DNA of 64,000 nucleotides from an uncultured Candidatus Saccharibacteria bacterium. GTDB taxonomy: Bacteria; Patescibacteriota; Doudnabacteria; UBA920. A program made the position numbers and the translations under genes. A model generated the notes under the pieces. It ran no database searches. It saw only the letters and a list, made by a program, of their open reading frames with translations, and was not told the origin of the DNA. Shown piece after piece: positions 58,915-64,000 of the stretch (the first letter of the stretch is position 1; every line of letters begins with the position of its first letter). The DNA lies in the NCBI GenBank assembly GCA_964631145.1, contig CAZVXT010000001.1, positions 553,797 to 617,796 of the forward strand, written 5' to 3'.

Positions 58915-58965
58915 ATGTTCGCACCAGCCCTTGCTGATTAAGCTTTTTCTTATTTTTTTCATAAG

Positions 58966-59035
58966 GCACTAACAGGAATTGAACCTGTTATTCTAGATTA
59001 CTAGTCTAGCATATGTCCATTTGTACTTTAGCGCC
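58966..59035 (-). tRNA. tRNA-like element with AGU anticodon (possible tRNA-Thr(AGU) or pseudo-tRNA)
   Basis: Acceptor GGCGCTA/TAGTGCC, 3-bp D-stem, perfect anticodon stem CTAGA/TCTAG with loop CUAGUAA, T-arm ACAGG-TTCAATT-CCTGT; no CCA encoded. Confidence 0.35.
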
Positions 59036-59546: not shown

Positions 59547-59586
59547 AATTTTATTTTCCTCTTTTTTATTTTTTATTTTAGACCAA

Positions 59587-59742
59587 TGGAGATGGCGGGA
59601 ATCGAACCCGCATCCAAGAATTTTAATACCTATTTATGCAGATTCAACTAAGTTTGCAGTCCTTAGTAACGCAAGTCCTTCTCGTGGTTGGTTATCCTTA
59701 CTTTCTACCCGGCTAAAATCCCTGTCGAAGCCTGTCACCCCC
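59587..59742 (-). ncRNA. ssrA: tmRNA-like gene (ssrA), unusually short (~156 nt), CCA not encoded
   Basis: 5' GGGGGUGACAGGCUUCGACAGGGAUUU matches the tmRNA 5' consensus; 3' GCGGGUUCGAUUCCCGCCAUCUCCA forms T-arm plus acceptor; G3-U70 Ala identity pair present; candidate tag ORF GCA AAC UUA GUU GAA UCU GCA UAA. Confidence 0.5.
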
Positions 59743-59789: not shown

Positions 59790-59822
59790 CGAAGCTAAAC
59801 AGCTTCGCAAGATATTAACCGT
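59790..59822 (-). terminator. Intrinsic terminator downstream of HicB-like gene
   Basis: On minus strand gcgaagc-uguuua-gcuucgc followed by U7. Confidence 0.6.
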
Positions 59823-59826
59823 GATG

Positions 59827-60525
59827 TTAATACCTGATTCTAAACTCTGCCCTTAAACCTAAGATTTGATTGAGATAATCTAAAGGTTCTACATCTACTG
59901 GCTTATCATAGACCAGCACAAACTGATCACTACGAACCATGGATGCTGGCTTGTTTTTTACCACAGCCATCATCCCTTTTTGCCTCTGACGACAAACACT
60001 ACAATCCCCATAACATCCATAAACTACAGTCATCACCATGTCATCAAGCACAGCAATCTGTCTAGAATTTTCCCATCCTGGGACAGTGATTAACCCAATC
60101 ACATTCCAGTCTTTTGAGTATGCCGCTGTTTGCAAGGAAATTTGCTTATCCCAAGCCTTCCTTTCAAGTTTTAGATTATACATTTCCCGTTTAAAATTAA
60201 TATTACGGACCAAAGATTGCAATGCCAGTTCTTCACTTCTACCAATTCCTCTACTTTGTTCAAACTCCAAACACTTTGCTAAATAAATTTTTCCCGAAGG
60301 CAAATCGTGAGTATTATAAGTAACAGTTAATTCTTCTGCACTATAAAGTCTATCTGGCATATCAGCAAAATATTCAGCATCTATAAATTCTTCAACTTTA
60401 TTTTGTAAATCTTTTTGAGCGTCTTCAATATTTTTACCTAATCCAAAAACGGTTGGAAACTGTTTGCATGTAGAGATAAATCCTTCTGAGGTTTTGGTGT
60501 TTCTTACGGTTCAAATTGTTTTCAT
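59827..60525 (-). pseudogene. HicB-like N-terminal domain protein interrupted by an in-frame TGA at codon 5 (ORF track reports only 59827..60360)
   Basis: GGAGG RBS 5 nt before ATG 60523-60525; reading MKTI*TVRNTKTSEGFISTCKQFPTVFGLGKNIEDAQKDLQNKVEEFIDAEYFAD continues in frame into MPDRLY…; the 55 codons between are stop-free and resemble a HicB/UPF0150 fold. Confidence 0.45.
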
Positions 60526-60581
60526 AATGCCTCCAAAAATTTGTAATTTTTATTTTTCCAAACAAACGAATATTCACTTGC
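60519..60581 (-). repeat. Promoter/5'-leader repeat copy A (shared with 61873..61940)
   Basis: 35-nt identical core ttttatttttccaaacaaacgaatattcacttgct plus shared ttcataat…cctcca SD region. Confidence 0.6.
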
Positions 60582-60620
60582 TGGGAAAAATTCCCAAAGT
60601 CACGTGCTTTGGGTTAATGA

Positions 60621-60962
60621 CTAATCATCATAGTCATAGTTTAAGTAAGTGTAATTTTCATCGCAATCCGAGACAGGAAAACCAAAATCTCTTAACTTTT
60701 GCTCATCCATTATTGGATAATCAAAAAGTTCAGCAATTGGAAATATCCTTGGGGTTACTACGTCCATCTCTTGCACATGTAATAACTCTTGATGAGAAGT
60801 GCTGGTGCAATAACAACCACACTTTTCTGTATCATCCCAAGTTAGATTATCAGCAACAAAGCTAACAATCGACTTTCTAATAGATTCCAGACTTTCATCT
60901 GGAGCTTCGACAGTATGATAGTTATTTTGACCATACTCCTTTAATACAATCATTAGTTTCAT
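60621..60962 (-). CDS. Hypothetical protein
   Basis: AGGAGGG RBS before ATG at 60962 (MKLMIVLKEYGQ…); preferred over overlapping + ORF. Confidence 0.4.
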   Translation of the reverse strand: MKLMIVLKEYGQNNYHTVEAPDESLESIRKSIVSFVADNLTWDDTEKCGCYCTSTSHQELLHVQEMDVVTPRIFPIAELFDYPIMDEQKLRDFGFPVSDCDENYTYLNYDYDD

Positions 60963-61122
60963 AGCCCTCCTATATAACTTTTTTCTGTTACTTGCTAATT
61001 CGCCGGTCAGCATATAAATTAGTCAAGTGTCCTAAAAGTTTTTTCCCTCTTTTTTAATCGACGTAAACACATCGACTAAAAAAGAGGTGCGAAGTTTTTT
61101 AGGCTTCGCATAAGTTTTCAAG

Positions 61123-61332
61123 TTAATAGAATTTCTTATCTTTAAAAGTGTTTATACTGCCGCCCCAATCGTCCTTTAACCATCCAATATACATACCGAG
61201 CTTAATAGCATCTGCTGTAGATATTGAATCAGGGACTTGGATATGATAACCACCTTTATTAAACGAAATATCTCCTTTAACTTTTAATGTTAAATCTACG
61301 AGTCGGGATAATGCCCAGTCAGGATTAAACAT
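61123..61332 (-). CDS. Hypothetical small protein (69 aa)
   Basis: GGAGGT RBS before MFNPDWALSRL…; intrinsic terminator downstream. Confidence 0.4.
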   Translation of the reverse strand: MFNPDWALSRLVDLTLKVKGDISFNKGGYHIQVPDSISTADAIKLGMYIGWLKDDWGGSINTFKDKKFY

Positions 61333-61469
61333 AATACCTCCACTACTTTCTTCTGTCTCTCGCTTACACACCAAAAGGCATTATGCAAGTCGAGTGTCCG
61401 GAAAGAACCTAATTACAAGTATAATTACTTGGACCATAGTTTAGTTTTGGTATTATGAACACCTTTTGT

Positions 61470-61661
61470 TTACTTATTGATTACTAATATAAACAACTCT
61501 CGTAAACAATATACTGCTACACCAACCATTAAAATCATAAATAAAGTTAGCATAATCATTTGTCCAGTATCGTGATTTGCTGCGGCTTCTTTGGAAGCTG
61601 TAGCTACAGCCACACACCCAACAGTTGAAATAATACACCCCAATATATAAAAAATCTTCAT
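61470..61661 (-). CDS. Small hydrophobic membrane peptide (63 aa)
   Basis: GAGGAGG RBS before MKIFYILGCIISTVGCVAVA…; two TM segments. Confidence 0.4.
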   Translation of the reverse strand: MKIFYILGCIISTVGCVAVATASKEAAANHDTGQMIMLTLFMILMVGVAVYCLRELFILVINK

Positions 61662-61746
61662 AAATCCTCCTCGATATAATCCCAATTTTTAAAAGACTAA
61701 ACAGTTAATCTTCTAAAAAAGAGGTGCAATATTAATTGCACAGGTG

Positions 61747-61878
61747 TTATAACACACGAATAAATCGTGCACACTCAGCGGCAATTGCCGGACCATAAGT
61801 GTTATATAAATGAGCAAAGCTCAATGAACCTACTACAATAAGCATGGCTCCCAATAATACTTCTACAATAAATTTCAT
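61747..61878 (-). CDS. Small hydrophobic peptide (43 aa) driven by repeat copy B
   Basis: GGAGG RBS before MKFIVEVLLGAMLIVVGSLSFAHLYNTYGPAIAAECARFIRVL; stem-loop terminator follows. Confidence 0.4.
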   Translation of the reverse strand: MKFIVEVLLGAMLIVVGSLSFAHLYNTYGPAIAAECARFIRVL

Positions 61879-61940
61879 AATTTCCTCCAGATTTTTTATT
61901 TAAAATTTTATTTTTCCAAACAAACGAATATTCACTTGCT
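61873..61940 (-). repeat. Promoter/5'-leader repeat copy B
   Basis: Same 35-nt core as 60547..60581 plus SD region. Confidence 0.6.
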
Positions 61941-62232
61941 TAGAAAAATGGCAAATCAAGTTTGCCGAGGTTTTTTGTCCCATTTACAATAGCGTGGAAC
62001 AAGTCTTTGGATAGTTCGACCATGCGCGCGGTAGCGAACAGTCCTAGTATCACATTTCGGACAACCGCAGTGTTCGTCTTCCAACTTGGCTGCGGCAACT
62101 TTAGGTGCGACATAAATGGTTATTTTTATGTTCATCATTTAAAGTATATTGCGGTCTCGCCTTGGTTTATAAACTATCGGCTAAATAATTTTTCTTTCCC
62201 CAAGATCCCCGCACTGTTTTTTTGAAACTTGC

Positions 62233-62478
62233 TTAGGCAGCAGCAACGGTTACTTTCTTCGCAGGTTTTCGTTTGAACTCTTGTCGCTTTTTATGAAGCT
62301 TCATAAGAGAATCATAACGATCACCCGCTCGATACCGCCGCGCGTCGGCATGGCTAACGATATTAGCTGCAGTTGCCGCGTTTAATTGAGCATCGATGCC
62401 AGCAAACTTCAATTTTGGTCTATGTTGAACCATATAAGCTAATTCAACTTCAACCAATTTTTCGATTTTGGTTATCAT
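62233..62478 (-). CDS. Hypothetical basic protein (81 aa)
   Basis: AGGAGG RBS; locally elevated G+C; 5'-UTR hairpin ccacc/ggtgg precedes the RBS. Confidence 0.4.
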   Translation of the reverse strand: MITKIEKLVEVELAYMVQHRPKLKFAGIDAQLNAATAANIVSHADARRYRAGDRYDSLMKLHKKRQEFKRKPAKKVTVAAA

Positions 62479-63059
62479 TATCTTTTCCTCCTATATAACC
62501 CACCAGCCACGGTGGTTTTATTTATTTTTATTTTCTTTTTCGAGATGACGAATTTACACTCATCCCCTCAAAAAAGGAGCCCAACTTAAAGTTGAGCATA
62601 AGTATGTGTTAGATGCTTTCCACAGCACCCTGCTGTAATTGGAGTTACAGCTTTCGCTTCCACTGCAGAGGAACCGCATTTTGTCTGACCTTCTCAGAAG
62701 ATGTCTTGCATAGACAATCCCAGCATCAATTTTTATCAAAATGATGACTTACACAAAATAGATTTTGACTAGACCTAGGAGTATATATATAGTTCATTAC
62801 CTTAGGGCAATAAAAGGCATTCTAGTATGCCACCTGACTTCCGAAGAACGAAGTCATTGGTCTAAGATATATACTTAATCAGGGTTATTTTGCAAAATTG
62901 CAAAAGTGACACGCAACCCTCCTAAATATTTTTAGCGTTCTATTTTAGATCGCCTATTTTAATTTTCAAATTTTGAAAACTAGAATAGACGGATGATTTA
63001 AGTTTGAAGTTTAAATCACCTCAATAAAATTTGTCTTGCGACATAAATTACCTCCTTTG

Positions 63060-63760
63060 ATAAAAATTTCCTATACGCTAGGATTACTTAGCGCCGGCGC
63101 GACCCAAGCCGGTAATCTGCTGCCCCTCCCATGGGGGTCGATATGGTCTTTATCGACATAGTCTTTTGGGTCTTGGGTAGACCGTTAGGTTTGCAGCCCG
63201 CTTTCGCGAGGAGCTTGTCCCCTAACCGGGCAAGCTCTTGGCGGCTTAAGCCGCTCAAGTCTGTCATATTTTTCAATTTTTTCTGTTCAGCTAAGTTTGT
63301 AACTCAACTGAACAGTTTGGGTGCTGAGCTGGTGGCTCATTGTTAACACCGCAGTCTGAAAATTTTCTTGTCACCTATTGTAACGAACTTTTTACAAAGC
63401 TTTGTCCAATAGGATCTCGCCATCACCGTTCTTGCGCGAGACTTTACGGATTTACGGTTGACCCAGATCTTGGGTTGTCAGTTACTCGTTTTCAGACGAA
63501 CCGGCAAAAATAAAGATTACTTTATCCCCGCCGGCCCGTCTGCAAAGTTGTAAGCTGGTGCTTAAACTAGCAAGCTAGTCTAAACATCTCTACAGTCGGG
63601 CGGACATATTAAAAAGCTGTAATCTTTGAATTAGATAACAACCTTTACAAGACCAACTCGCTGTGTGGCAAGTATTTATATGATTATTAGCCCCGTAATA
63701 GAGGCACTCCTGCCTACCAGCGATGTTCCTTTAATTTCTTAATGGAAACTAGCCGTAAAA
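63060..63760. other. ORF-free, G+C-enriched, stem-loop-dense region (candidate large structured RNA of unknown class)
   Basis: No ORF above 71 aa in any frame over ~1.5 kb (62480-64000); many perfect 5-8 bp hairpins such as CTGTTCAG…CTGAACAG, GAGCTTG…CAAGCTC, GCGGCttaaGCCGC, TCTCGC…GCGAGA. Confidence 0.25.
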
Positions 63761-64000
63761 GATTGTTATTTACTTTTCAAAATTTCAGCTTACAAAAGTA
63801 TTATACACGAATAATTATTTTTGTCAAGAAGTTTTAACAAAATTTTGTATATTTTTCTTTAAACATTGTTTTTATTAAGTATTTTGTAATAAATTATTGA
63901 TATTTTATATAAACATAATAAGATAAATCATGTAATTATTTGTTTTGGATAAAAATAAAAAAGCATCAATTGCTTTTGTAGAGTAAATCTACTTTGCAGT

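What the first reader, a model, noticed from the sequence alone, without database searches (positions are those of the whole stretch)
62480..63760. ~1.3 kb with no real ORF, including a ~0.7 kb G+C-enriched block packed with perfect hairpins: candidate large structured RNA
In a compact, gene-dense window this is the only stretch where no frame stays open beyond ~70 aa. The 63060-63740 part is much G+C-richer than its surroundings and holds many exact stem-loops: CTGTTCAG/CTGAACAG, GAGCTTG/CAAGCTC, GCGGC-TTAA-GCCGC, TCTCGC/GCGAGA and CCCC-tcccat-GGGG. No tmRNA, SRP, RNase P or rRNA consensus blocks were recognised. This pattern suggests a large ornate ncRNA, a ribozyme/intron, or a badly decayed foreign gene. 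A 7-codon ORF (MSQDKFY) with a perfect AAAGGAGGT SD sits at its minus-strand 5' side.
Basis: seen in the sequence. Interest (0 to 1): 0.65.

Follow-up and report, generated by a model that had tools for sequence, protein, structure and literature searches.

The report
Conserved leader RNA plus small-protein gene
The "gene-free" stretch is the start of a minus-strand transcription unit in a candidate-phyla-radiation bacterium: an unclassified, about 305-base structured RNA with strong evolutionary support, followed by an overlooked 59-residue protein gene and a 7-codon mini-gene, not one giant RNA or a dead gene.

Summary
No frame is open beyond 76 codons. Block 63060-63740 is the G+C-richest 680 nt of the window (45% against 33%). 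All listed hairpins exist, and Rfam 15 finds nothing. But the stretch is not one large RNA.

On the minus strand it holds, in order:
- a 12/12 sigma-70 promoter (63800-63827);
- a ~305-nt RNA (63488-63793) found in 13 distinct homologous loci of related Patescibacteria. Of 94 proposed pairs, 90% of cells are paired (about 42% in slid controls) and 41 pairs show double changes (14-17 in controls);
- a ~125-nt structured insert (63362-63487) shared with only two relatives;
- a conserved 59-aa basic-protein gene (63088-63267).
- a conserved 7-codon ORF (63021-63044), then hairpins and terminator-like sites.

In relatives, small-protein genes start 9-37 nt after the RNA. A covarying alternative helix competes with its 26-bp terminal hairpin.

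Best reading: a new cis-acting switch-like leader RNA. A stand-alone RNA or RNP is the main rival. It is not a Y RNA, an intron, GOLLD/ROOL/OLE or a pseudogene.

The parts
63822..63840 (-). Inverted repeat overlapping the -35 hexamer. In this genome it reads TTGTTA-N7-TTGACA; relatives have TGTCAA-N6/7-TTGACA. It is a candidate operator for the TrmB-family regulator encoded just upstream, beyond the window end.
   Evidence: Promoter regions of the 13 loci and L083 printed in register. The regulator gene is at L001 4139-4891 and matches Pfam TrmB at 8e-14. That this is an operator is inferred, not tested.
63800..63827 (-). Sigma-70-type promoter TTGACA-16-TATAAT (12 of 12 matches). The inferred transcription start is near G63793.
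   Evidence: Promoter scan. The same promoter architecture sits at the same distance from the RNA 5' end in all homologous loci.
63488..63793 (-). Conserved core RNA of about 305 nt. Domain 1 is P1 to P6, closed by the invariant pairing UAAGCUGA/UCAGCUU. Then come a hairpin domain, a second invariant CAGCUUAC, and a 26-bp terminal hairpin (P10) that has a covarying competitor helix.
   Evidence: nhmmer profile hits at E 1e-45 to 1e-89 in 13 distinct loci. Alignment A5. Structure, tested: 90.4% of cells paired against 39-45% slid, 41 pairs with double changes against 14-17, 0 of 500 shuffles as high. Alternative helix. Alternative folds lie 0-6 kcal/mol above the MFE for the competitor helix in 12 of 13 homologs. 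z = -7.3. Many G.U pairs fix the minus strand as the sense strand.
63362..63487 (-). Accessory structured module ('module 2'): a multi-stem junction with conserved linkers (CAACCGUAAAUCCGUAAAGUCUC ... GAGAUCCU ... AGGUGAC). It is present in only 3 of the 13 loci.
Evidence: Shared with L007 and L171. Consensus fold of the three sequences: 39 pairs, 14 with compensatory changes. Its own z-score is weak, -1.2.
63283..63315 (-). Perfect hairpin CUGUUCAG...CUGAACAG in the spacer before the small ORF. It is specific to this genome.
   Evidence: Read. Not conserved in alignments A2 and A3.
63088..63267 (-). Small basic protein gene, family A (59 aa plus stop): MTDLSGLSRQELARLGDKLLAKAGCKPNGLPKTQKTMSIKTISTPMGGAADYRLGSRRR. 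It has an A/U-rich leader and no SD.
   Evidence: tblastn homologs in L163, L013, L007, L164, L166, L167, L175, L177, L083 and L112. Alignments A6 and A8. 10 unnamed database relatives. Differences are biased to the third codon position in close pairs. No Pfam match. AlphaFold gives one helix and is otherwise low-confidence.
63021..63058 (-). Perfect SD (AAAGGAGGU, 63050-63058) and the 7-codon ORF MSQDKFY (63021-63044).
   Evidence: The same 7-codon ORF follows family A in L163 (MSQDKFT) and L007 (MANESFY). The amino-acid changes are conservative while many nucleotides, and the stop codon, differ.
62951..63017 (-). Two hairpins directly after the mini-ORF: GAUUUAA...UUAAAUC and CGUCUAUU...AAUAGGCG.
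   Evidence: Conserved in position in L007, with changed stem sequences (CACGAUU/AAUCGUG; CGCCUAUU/AAUAGGCG), read from alignment A2. Segment z = -5.0.
62806..62831 (-). Intrinsic-terminator-like site (GGCAUACUAGAAUGCC followed by a U-run). It is a possible 3' end of a transcript of about 1 kb.
   Evidence: Terminator scan. Not conserved in relatives.
62569..62597 (-). Second terminator-like site (GCUCAACUUUAAGUUGGGC followed by UCCUUUUUUG), ahead of the 81-aa ORF.
   Evidence: Terminator scan. Weak similarity of 62517-62603 to L171.
62233..62478 (-). 81-aa ORF with a strong SD. It is the next gene of the variable small-ORF region, just outside the finding.
   Evidence: ORF list. One 95% database relative. 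39% identity to an 81-aa ORF in L162. No Pfam match.

Best explanation
The stretch is the first ~1.2 kb of a minus-strand transcription unit of a Patescibacteria (CPR) chromosome.

What is there:
- A consensus sigma-70 promoter, overlapped by an inverted repeat. The repeat is a likely operator of the TrmB-family regulator encoded immediately upstream.
- A conserved, highly structured RNA of about 305 nt that belongs to no described family.
- In this genome an optional 125-nt structured insert follows it.
- Then the gene for a conserved 59-aa basic protein (family A) and a conserved 7-codon ORF.

How it most likely works (inferred): the RNA is a cis-acting leader that switches between two folds.
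- In the ground state, the 5' end pairs with the first CAGCUU copy (P1) and the 26-bp terminal hairpin P10 forms.
- In the alternative state, an upstream segment captures the 5' strand of P10, and the invariant 5' end can pair with a second CAGCUUA copy.
- Which fold prevails would be set either by an unknown ligand or by the small basic proteins encoded just downstream (autoregulation, as with ribosomal-protein leaders). The fold would control expression, processing or stability of those genes.

Shown: the promoter match, the RNA's conservation and structure, the competing helix, the coding status of the small ORFs, and their position right after the RNA.

Inferred: transcription itself, the switch, the effector and the regulatory output.
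For: RNA reality:
- 13 distinct homologs, 53-88% identical in the pairs measured.
- 94-pair structure: 90.4% of cells paired against 39-45% when partners are slid; 41 pairs with double changes against 14-17; covariation score 0.35 against about 0.10; 0 of 500 shuffles as high.
- Many conserved G.U pairs exist only on the minus strand. z = -7.3.
- Perfect promoter at a fixed distance in all loci.

Leader role:
- Family A or family B small-protein ORFs begin 9-37 nt after the terminal hairpin in L163, L166, L167, L177 (family A) and L170, L175, L176 (family B).
- 10 of 13 loci carry A and/or B downstream on the same strand.
- Both ORF families show coding-type substitution patterns.

Switch:
- The helix of columns 225-236 with 296-307 is 88% paired, with UA/CG covariation, and excludes the lower stem of P10, which also covaries.
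- Two invariant CAGCUU copies are both complementary to the invariant 5' end. In L168 the pair G(-1):C changes to A:U.
- Forcing the competitor helix costs 0-6.3 kcal/mol above the MFE in 12 of 13 homologs; forcing the second CAGCUUA pairing costs 0.2-10 kcal/mol.
Against: - There is no expression data, so the transcript ends are inferred.
- P10 has no U-tract and masks no SD or start codon, so neither of the two classic riboswitch outputs is visible.
- The downstream genes are not uniform. L162, L168 and L171 have neither family A nor B. In this window about 220 nt (module 2 plus a hairpin) separate the RNA from ORF A.
- A consensus promoter and a 300-nt size would also suit an abundant stand-alone RNA.
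- Near-isoenergetic alternative folds are common in long RNAs, and the competitor helix rests on 12 pairs with four double-change positions.
- Most homologs were reached through the TrmB gene. The TrmB link is therefore partly by construction; only L007 was found independently, through L10 synteny.
Confidence: 0.55

Rival explanations
1. Stand-alone, trans-acting structured RNA, possibly the scaffold of a small ribonucleoprotein with basic proteins A and B. The small ORFs are merely co-transcribed or adjacent.
For: - Consensus promoter.
- The RNA is the constant element, while the downstream genes vary among loci.
- It is large and has long invariant single-stranded and helical stretches.
- Proteins A and B are very basic. 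The model of A is one helix plus a low-confidence tail, as in many proteins that fold on RNA.
- Family A also occurs without the RNA nearby in L013, L083 and L112.
Against: - No terminator separates the RNA from the ORFs in the minimal loci, and ORFs start 9-37 nt after P10.
- The covarying mutually exclusive helix is more typical of a regulatory switch.
- The two readings are not exclusive.
Confidence: 0.3
2. A Y-RNA-like partner of the Ro60 (Rsr) protein, left behind in this genome after loss of the rsr gene.
For: - In L007 the same RNA lies about 1.2 kb upstream of a TROVE-domain gene on the same strand.
- In L083 a TrmB gene, the same promoter type and a 417-nt noncoding stretch precede a TROVE plus vWA_Ro60 gene.
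- Bacterial Y RNAs lie within 4 kb of rsr on the same strand and can be cut from a precursor (PMC4201824).
Against: - Only 1 of the 13 RNA loci (L007) has rsr; in L083, where rsr is also found, the RNA was not detected. None is found in the window.
- Size is 305 nt against 80-130 nt.
- There is no conserved GNCGAAN0-1G motif and no T-arm-like loop in any of the 13 sequences.
- Nothing reached any Rfam family's gathering score on the RNA in the 11 further loci, and no relevant family matched at E<=5 in L007 and L083. I did not verify which Y-RNA families this Rfam copy holds.
- The L083 leader is not detectably homologous.
Confidence: 0.05
3. One large ornate RNA, ribozyme or intron of 0.7-1.3 kb spanning the whole ORF-poor stretch.
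For: Every segment of the minus strand folds better than shuffles (z -4.6 to -7.3, except module 2). Rfam has no competing annotation.
Against: - Conservation stops at about 305 nt in 10 of 13 loci.
- The region beyond is a protein gene with codon-type evolution, or is non-conserved.
- There are no group I/II, GOLLD, ROOL, OLE or HEARO matches even at E<=10.
- There is no flanking host gene that an intron would interrupt.
- No IscB, TnpB or RT gene lies next to it.
Confidence: 0.03
4. A decayed gene: pseudogene remnants of a foreign or lost protein gene, for example rsr.
For: Relatives L007 and L083 carry rsr further downstream in the same locus, while the window has only small orphan ORFs there.
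Against: - The homologous positions in 12 relatives hold the same RNA and small ORFs, not an intact long gene.
- tblastn with TROVE proteins finds nothing in the window.
- Alternative genetic codes do not open a long frame.
- Compensatory changes show selection on RNA pairing.
Confidence: 0.02

Closest known systems
Long autoregulatory leaders of ribosomal-protein operons (for example the L10 leader, RF00557, present elsewhere in this window, and the L20 leader of infC-rpmI-rplT)
   Same: A structured 5' leader on the same transcript as genes for small, very basic proteins. It has alternative pairings and lies in a ribosomal-gene neighbourhood (rplJ/rplL are 6 kb away).
   Different: Proteins A and B match no ribosomal or other Pfam family. 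No SD or start codon is masked. The leader is longer and more elaborate. Protein binding is untested.
Riboswitches with large aptamers and separate expression platforms (cobalamin, T-box, lysine, M-box)
   Same: A conserved multi-helix domain closed by a P1 helix, followed by a hairpin whose 5' strand has a competing, covarying partner. It lies directly upstream of ORFs.
   Different: No match to any Rfam riboswitch. There is no U-tract terminator and no SD sequestration. The downstream genes give no metabolic clue to a ligand. The distribution is narrow.
Bacterial Y RNAs (YrlA/YrlB, D. radiodurans Yrn1) encoded next to rsr (PMC4201824)
   Same: In L007 the RNA is upstream of a Ro60/TROVE gene on the same strand, within 4 kb, possibly on one precursor.
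   Different: It is three times larger. [quoted passage not shown] Most loci, including this window, have no rsr.
Large bacterial RNAs of unknown function (ROOL, GOLLD, OLE, raiA)
   Same: A G+C-rich island in an A+T-rich genome, many conserved helices, unknown biochemical function, and detection only by comparative analysis.
   Different: No sequence or structure match. It is smaller (305 nt). It sits at a fixed chromosomal locus rather than in a prophage or tRNA-linked site, and it is tightly coupled to downstream small ORFs.

Membership tests
Any Rfam 15 family (including group I/II introns, GOLLD, ROOL, OLE, HEARO, 6S, SRP, RNase P, tmRNA, T-box and riboswitches) | Covariance-model score at or above the family's gathering score | tested here: not met
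   There is no hit in 62000-64000 at gathering scores or at E<=10, only microRNA/snoRNA noise. Nothing reached gathering score on the homologous RNA in 11 further loci, and an E<=5 scan of L007 and L083 gave no hit on it either.
Bacterial Y RNA (YrlA type) | Encoded within about 4 kb of an rsr (Ro60/TROVE) gene on the same strand | tested here: not met
   There is no TROVE similarity in the window or in L001. The feature is met only in the homologous locus L007.
Bacterial Y RNA (YrlA type) | GNCGAAN0-1G motif near the 5' end in the Ro60-binding stem | tested here: not met
   A regex over the 13 core sequences and the whole window stretch finds it absent in 10 of 13. Where present, it is at non-homologous positions.
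Bacterial Y RNA (YrlA type) | tRNA-like module with a T-arm-like loop; length 80-130 nt | tested here: not met
   There is no GUUCRA-type loop in any homolog. ARAGORN finds nothing here. The length is about 305 nt.
Cis-regulatory leader or riboswitch (general kind) | Conserved structured domain supported by covariation | tested here: met
   41 of 94 pairs have double changes, 90.4% of cells are paired, and both controls lie far below.
Cis-regulatory leader or riboswitch (general kind) | Lies in the 5' untranslated region of the genes it controls, on the same strand, with no intervening terminator | tested here: met
   ORF A or B starts 9-37 nt after P10 in 7 loci. In the window the gap is about 220 nt, filled by module 2 and a hairpin with no U-tract.
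Cis-regulatory leader or riboswitch (general kind) | Mutually exclusive alternative structures | tested here: inconclusive
   The competitor helix is 88% paired with covariation. Forcing it costs 0-6.3 kcal/mol in 12 of 13 homologs, and forcing the second CAGCUUA pairing costs 0.2-10 kcal/mol. But it has only 12 pairs and there is no probing data.
Cis-regulatory leader or riboswitch (general kind) | Recognisable output: an intrinsic terminator, or sequestration of the SD or start codon | tested here: not met
   P10 is not followed by a U-run, and the small ORFs mostly have no SD.
Cis-regulatory leader or riboswitch (general kind) | Binding of a ligand or protein that shifts the fold | not testable with these tools
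   This needs in-line probing, SHAPE or EMSA.
Small protein family A (unnamed) | Reading frame and motif A[TD]xLLRKAG[FY]..G.P conserved across diverged loci, with codon-type substitution | tested here: met
   The frame is kept in 11 loci. 10 database relatives. Differences by codon position are 4/1/9 between L164 and L167, with 8 synonymous against 5 non-synonymous codon changes.

The most novel reading that the evidence does not exclude
The 305-nt RNA is a new class of either ligand- or protein-sensing switch, or the RNA core of a previously unknown small ribonucleoprotein (RNA plus basic proteins A and B). It would be specific to a Patescibacteria lineage, under a dedicated TrmB-type regulator, and functionally tied to RNA quality control, since Ro60 and a mini-tmRNA share the locus.
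Probability: 0.3. Interest if true: 0.75.

Novelty: new variant of a known kind. Interest (0 to 1): 0.5.

Why it matters
CPR/Patescibacteria have tiny genomes and few known regulators, and almost no lineage-specific RNAs have been described for them. This locus offers several things:
- A well-supported new structured RNA of about 300 nt, with a two-state architecture and a dedicated regulator gene.
- Two unannotated small basic protein families that gene callers miss.
- A testable candidate for a new riboswitch or autoregulatory RNP in organisms that cannot yet be handled genetically.

It is also a caution for scans of this type. A G+C-rich, hairpin-rich, "ORF-free" block in an A+T-rich genome can be a mosaic of a true RNA and a real 59-codon gene.

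Tried and rejected
- **Alternative genetic codes.** With UGA, UAG or UAA read as sense, no frame exceeds 106 codons.
- **Paralogs.** blastn of the stretch against the window finds none.
- **Phages and plasmids.** blastn against the phage and plasmid collections gives no match.
- **Pseudo-protein query.** Using the 62-aa ORF to scan genome contigs gave nothing. This shows that the source genome is not among the species representatives.
- **The 81-aa ORF as a handle.** It is an orphan, with one 95% relative.
- **Synteny through L10.** 80 loci gave only L007, plus a weak hit in L013 that later proved to be the family A ORF.
- **TrmB profile on metagenome contigs.** 80 loci gave no further nucleotide homolog by nhmmer or by CM R1. 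This scan did, however, reveal the Ro60 context in L083.
- **Full-length covariance model.** Only the 3' third was modelled (R1).
- **Y RNA hypothesis.** The motifs are absent.
- **Pfam for proteins A and B and the neighbouring small ORFs.** Nothing found.
- **AlphaFold of protein A.** pLDDT 66 with a single helix, too poor for a fold search, so none was run.
- **Combined alternative state.** Folding it with both helices is a pseudoknot that ViennaRNA cannot score. The two helices were scored separately.
- **Structure in the ORF A/B coding regions of relatives.** All z-scores are negative (-1.5 to -3.8), but a control ORF gives -3.2, so there is no evidence of a conserved RNA structure there.
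Full report
**1. The observation**

Reading 61800-64000 and listing ORFs confirms that no frame in 62480-63760 is open for more than 76 codons. Reassigning any one stop codon does not create a long frame; the maximum is 106 codons.

The window is 33.4% G+C. Block 63060-63740 is 45.2%, the richest 680-nt stretch of all 64 kb and in the top 0.1% of such windows.

The stretch folds far better than dinucleotide shuffles, and better on the minus strand: z -7.6 against -4.7. By segment, the minus-strand z-scores are -7.3, -1.2, -6.3, -5.0 and -4.6.

Rfam 15 finds RNase P RNA, tRNAs, a tmRNA and an L10 leader elsewhere in the window. It finds nothing here, even at E<=10. ARAGORN finds nothing here either.

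**2. Organism and context**

SecA, SecD, a Mur ligase, a release factor and L10 show that this is a bacterial chromosome.

The nearest species representatives, by L10, are Patescibacteria MAGs labelled Candidatus Doudnabacteria or 'uncultured Saccharibacteria'. Their L10 identity is at most 76%.

A Logan contig (L001) carries the same DNA and runs 5.5 kb beyond the window end. Upstream of the stretch, in minus-strand sense, lies a 250-aa TrmB-family regulator gene (Pfam 8e-14). It is followed by 2.1 kb without called genes. No IscB, TnpB or RT gene is present.

**3. Strand and promoter**

A perfect TTGACA-16-TATAAT promoter lies on the minus strand at 63827..63800.

Conserved helices contain many G.U pairs that would be A.C on the other strand. 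The sense strand is therefore the minus strand.

**4. Homologs**

Phage and plasmid collections have no match.

Among 80 loci around L10 genes, nhmmer found one clear homolog, L007. It sits in the same position between a TrmB ortholog (47% identity) and L10.

Searching the protein database with the TrmB alignment gave many orthologs. All that were fetched with enough downstream DNA carry the RNA. With the window, this makes 13 distinct sequences, 53-88% identical to each other in the pairs measured.

More distant TrmB loci (80 metagenome contigs) and the other L10 loci have no detectable copy, either with an nhmmer profile or with a covariance model of the 3' third.

One caveat: apart from L007, the homologs were reached through TrmB. 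'Every TrmB ortholog is followed by the RNA' is shown. The converse is not.

**5. What is conserved**

Conservation starts at the promoter and ends about 305 nt after the start, at window 63488-63793.

RNAalifold on the 13 sequences gives ten helices:
- a long closing helix, AAGCUGA/UCAGCUU plus UUUGUCA/UGACAAA;
- P2, UAACACUUUUU/AAAGGGUGUUA;
- a junction with a variable hairpin;
- a helix carrying the hairpin GAGCU...GGGCU and an invariant loop, ACGGGGCUAAUAAU.AUAU.AAUG;
- a second hairpin domain;
- a 26-bp terminal hairpin, P10.

Counting pairs gives:

| Measure | Structure | Partners slid by 1-3 columns |
|---|---|---|
| Cells paired | 90.4% | 39-45% |
| Pairs changed on both sides (of 94) | 41 | 14-17 |
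| Covariation score | 0.35 | about 0.10 |

No shuffle out of 500 reaches any observed value. This is a real structured RNA.

**6. Signs of a switch**

The invariant 5' end, (G)UAAGCUGA, is complementary to two invariant copies of CAGCUU(A).
- The first copy closes domain 1. Its extension covaries; in the window it reads UUUUGAA/UUCAAAG instead of UUUGUCA/UGACAAA.
- The second copy sits just before P10. In L168 the G(-1):C pair to this copy has become A:U.

Separately, columns 225-236 are complementary to the 5' strand of the lower stem of P10. They are 88% paired, and pair 228:304 occurs as UA in 7 sequences and CG in 5. The lower stem of P10 also covaries. The two helices cannot coexist.

Forcing the competitor helix costs 0-6.3 kcal/mol relative to the MFE in 12 of 13 homologs. 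Forcing the second CAGCUUA pairing costs 0.2-10 kcal/mol.

**7. What follows the RNA**

*(a) Module 2.* In the window, L007 and L171, a module of about 125 nt follows (63362-63487). It has conserved linkers, and 14 of its 39 pairs change in a compensatory way among just three sequences.

*(b) Small protein family A.* The window's 59-aa ORF at 63088-63267 belongs to a small basic protein family.
- Motif: A[TD]xLLRKAG[FY]..G.P.
- It is found in L163, L013, L007, L164, L166, L167, L175, L177, L083 and L112.
- It has ten unnamed database relatives.
- Substitutions are biased to the third codon position.
- It has no Pfam match.
- Its AlphaFold model is a single helix and is otherwise low-confidence.
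- This gene is 58% G+C. It contains the GAGCTTG/CAAGCTC, GCGGC-TTAA-GCCGC and CCCC/GGGG hairpins. Those hairpins are not conserved in relatives.

*(c) Small protein family B.* A second family of 45 aa (WIKxLCW...WKSPWHRHxAI..L..VNARRL) follows the RNA in L170, L175, L176, L166 and L007. In seven loci, ORF A or B starts 9-37 nt after P10. Ten of the 13 loci have A and/or B.

*(d) The 7-codon ORF.* The ORF with a perfect SD recurs after family A:

| Locus | Peptide |
|---|---|
| Window | MSQDKFY |
| L163 | MSQDKFT |
| L007 | MANESFY |

The nucleotides, and the stop codon, differ among the three. Two hairpins follow it. L007 keeps their positions with changed stem sequences.

*(e) The rest.* 62480-62950 is not conserved. 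It holds two terminator-like sites, at 62831..62816 and 62597..62579.

**8. Interpretation**

The best-supported reading is a cis-acting, switch-like leader RNA at the head of a small-basic-protein operon, transcribed from a strong promoter.

The -35 hexamer lies inside a conserved inverted repeat, TGTCAA-N6/7-TTGACA. That repeat is plausibly the operator of the adjacent TrmB-family regulator.

The effector could be the encoded basic proteins, as in ribosomal-protein leaders, or an unknown ligand. The output is unclear because P10 is neither a U-tract terminator nor an SD mask. A 26-bp duplex would be a good RNase III substrate; this is inference only.

The main rival is a stand-alone RNA or RNP scaffold. 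The two readings are compatible.

A Y-RNA-like role was considered, because L007 and L083 carry Ro60/TROVE genes downstream. The defining motifs are absent, and rsr is present at only one of the 13 RNA loci.

The giant-RNA, intron and pseudogene readings are contradicted by where conservation ends and by the coding small ORF.

**9. Novelty and score**

The RNA matches no Rfam family in any of the loci scanned. I found no description of it in the literature searches.

It is a new family of a familiar general kind: a structured leader or regulatory RNA. Its distribution is narrow (13 distinct sequences) and its function is unknown.

Interest is moderate, 0.5. It would rise if the RNA proves to be a new riboswitch class or RNP.

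Noticed in passing
window 59584-59742 (-): A very small tmRNA of 159 nt. Both halves of the tRNA-like domain match Rfam tmRNA (60.9 bits), but only 88 nt lie between them where the model has about 300. ARAGORN misses it. A possible tag frame reads GCA AAC UUA GUU GAA UCU GCA UAA (ANLVESA-stop). Equally small forms (131-154 nt) occur in L007, L176 and L177.
   Followed up: partly
L007 7454-7508 (+): A Hammerhead_3 match (42.9 bits, gathering score 48.5, E 2.5e-6) lies directly 5' of that genome's 131-nt mini-tmRNA. It could be a ribozyme that makes the tmRNA 5' end. There is no such match at the equivalent place in the window.
   Followed up: no
L001 4983-5009 and 5118-5165 (beyond the window end, minus-strand sense), and the equivalent places in L007, L083, L162-L170: Between the TrmB gene and the RNA promoter, nearly every locus has two mini-ORFs with perfect SD sequences that end in Trp-stop. 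Examples are MKKSGGNW, MRLSRHVYREGGTSW, MGW, MHW, MW, MNW, MKGGSW, MSGGNW and MTGGNW. L171 is an exception. The function is unknown; it could be a Trp- or termination-sensing leader device.
   Followed up: partly
window 63822-63840 and the equivalent places in 13 loci: An inverted repeat TGTCAA-N6/7-TTGACA overlaps the -35 hexamer of the RNA promoter. A further TGTCAA lies at +11 inside the RNA in most relatives. This is a likely operator of the adjacent TrmB-family regulator.
   Followed up: partly
L007 5293-6988; L083 6748-8349: A Ro60/TROVE (Rsr) gene occupies the variable slot downstream of the TrmB-promoter-RNA unit in two relatives. In L083 a 417-nt non-homologous G+C-rich leader precedes it, a family A small ORF follows it, and an RNase III gene lies upstream of TrmB.
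   Followed up: partly
L170 7742-7876, L175 7851-7985, L176 7610-7744, L166 3250-3384, L007 4297-4416: A second unannotated small basic protein family (45 aa, WIKxLCW...WKSPWHRHxAI..L..VNARRL) is encoded right after the core RNA. It has no Pfam match and was not detected in the window.
   Followed up: partly
window 59800-62480 (-), and the equivalent region in relatives: The segment between the RNA unit and the tmRNA is a hypervariable run of small orphan ORFs. It includes single-helix hydrophobic peptides, for example the 43-aa ORF at 61747-61878 and the 71-aa ORF at 61470-61685, that resemble small membrane toxins. Its content differs in every relative.
   Followed up: no
window 58964-59035 (-): A tRNA is seen by Rfam (48 bits, with mismatches marked by the alignment in the D stem) but not by ARAGORN. 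The anticodon loop CUAGUAA would give anticodon AGU (Thr), which is unusual for bacteria.
   Followed up: no
L001 1461-4023; L162, L167, L170 upstream of TrmB; L164 and L166: The region on the other side of the TrmB gene is also variable. It carries an HATPase_c_3 protein with two or three unknown partners, or GmrSD_N-like genes. This looks like a defence island.
   Followed up: no
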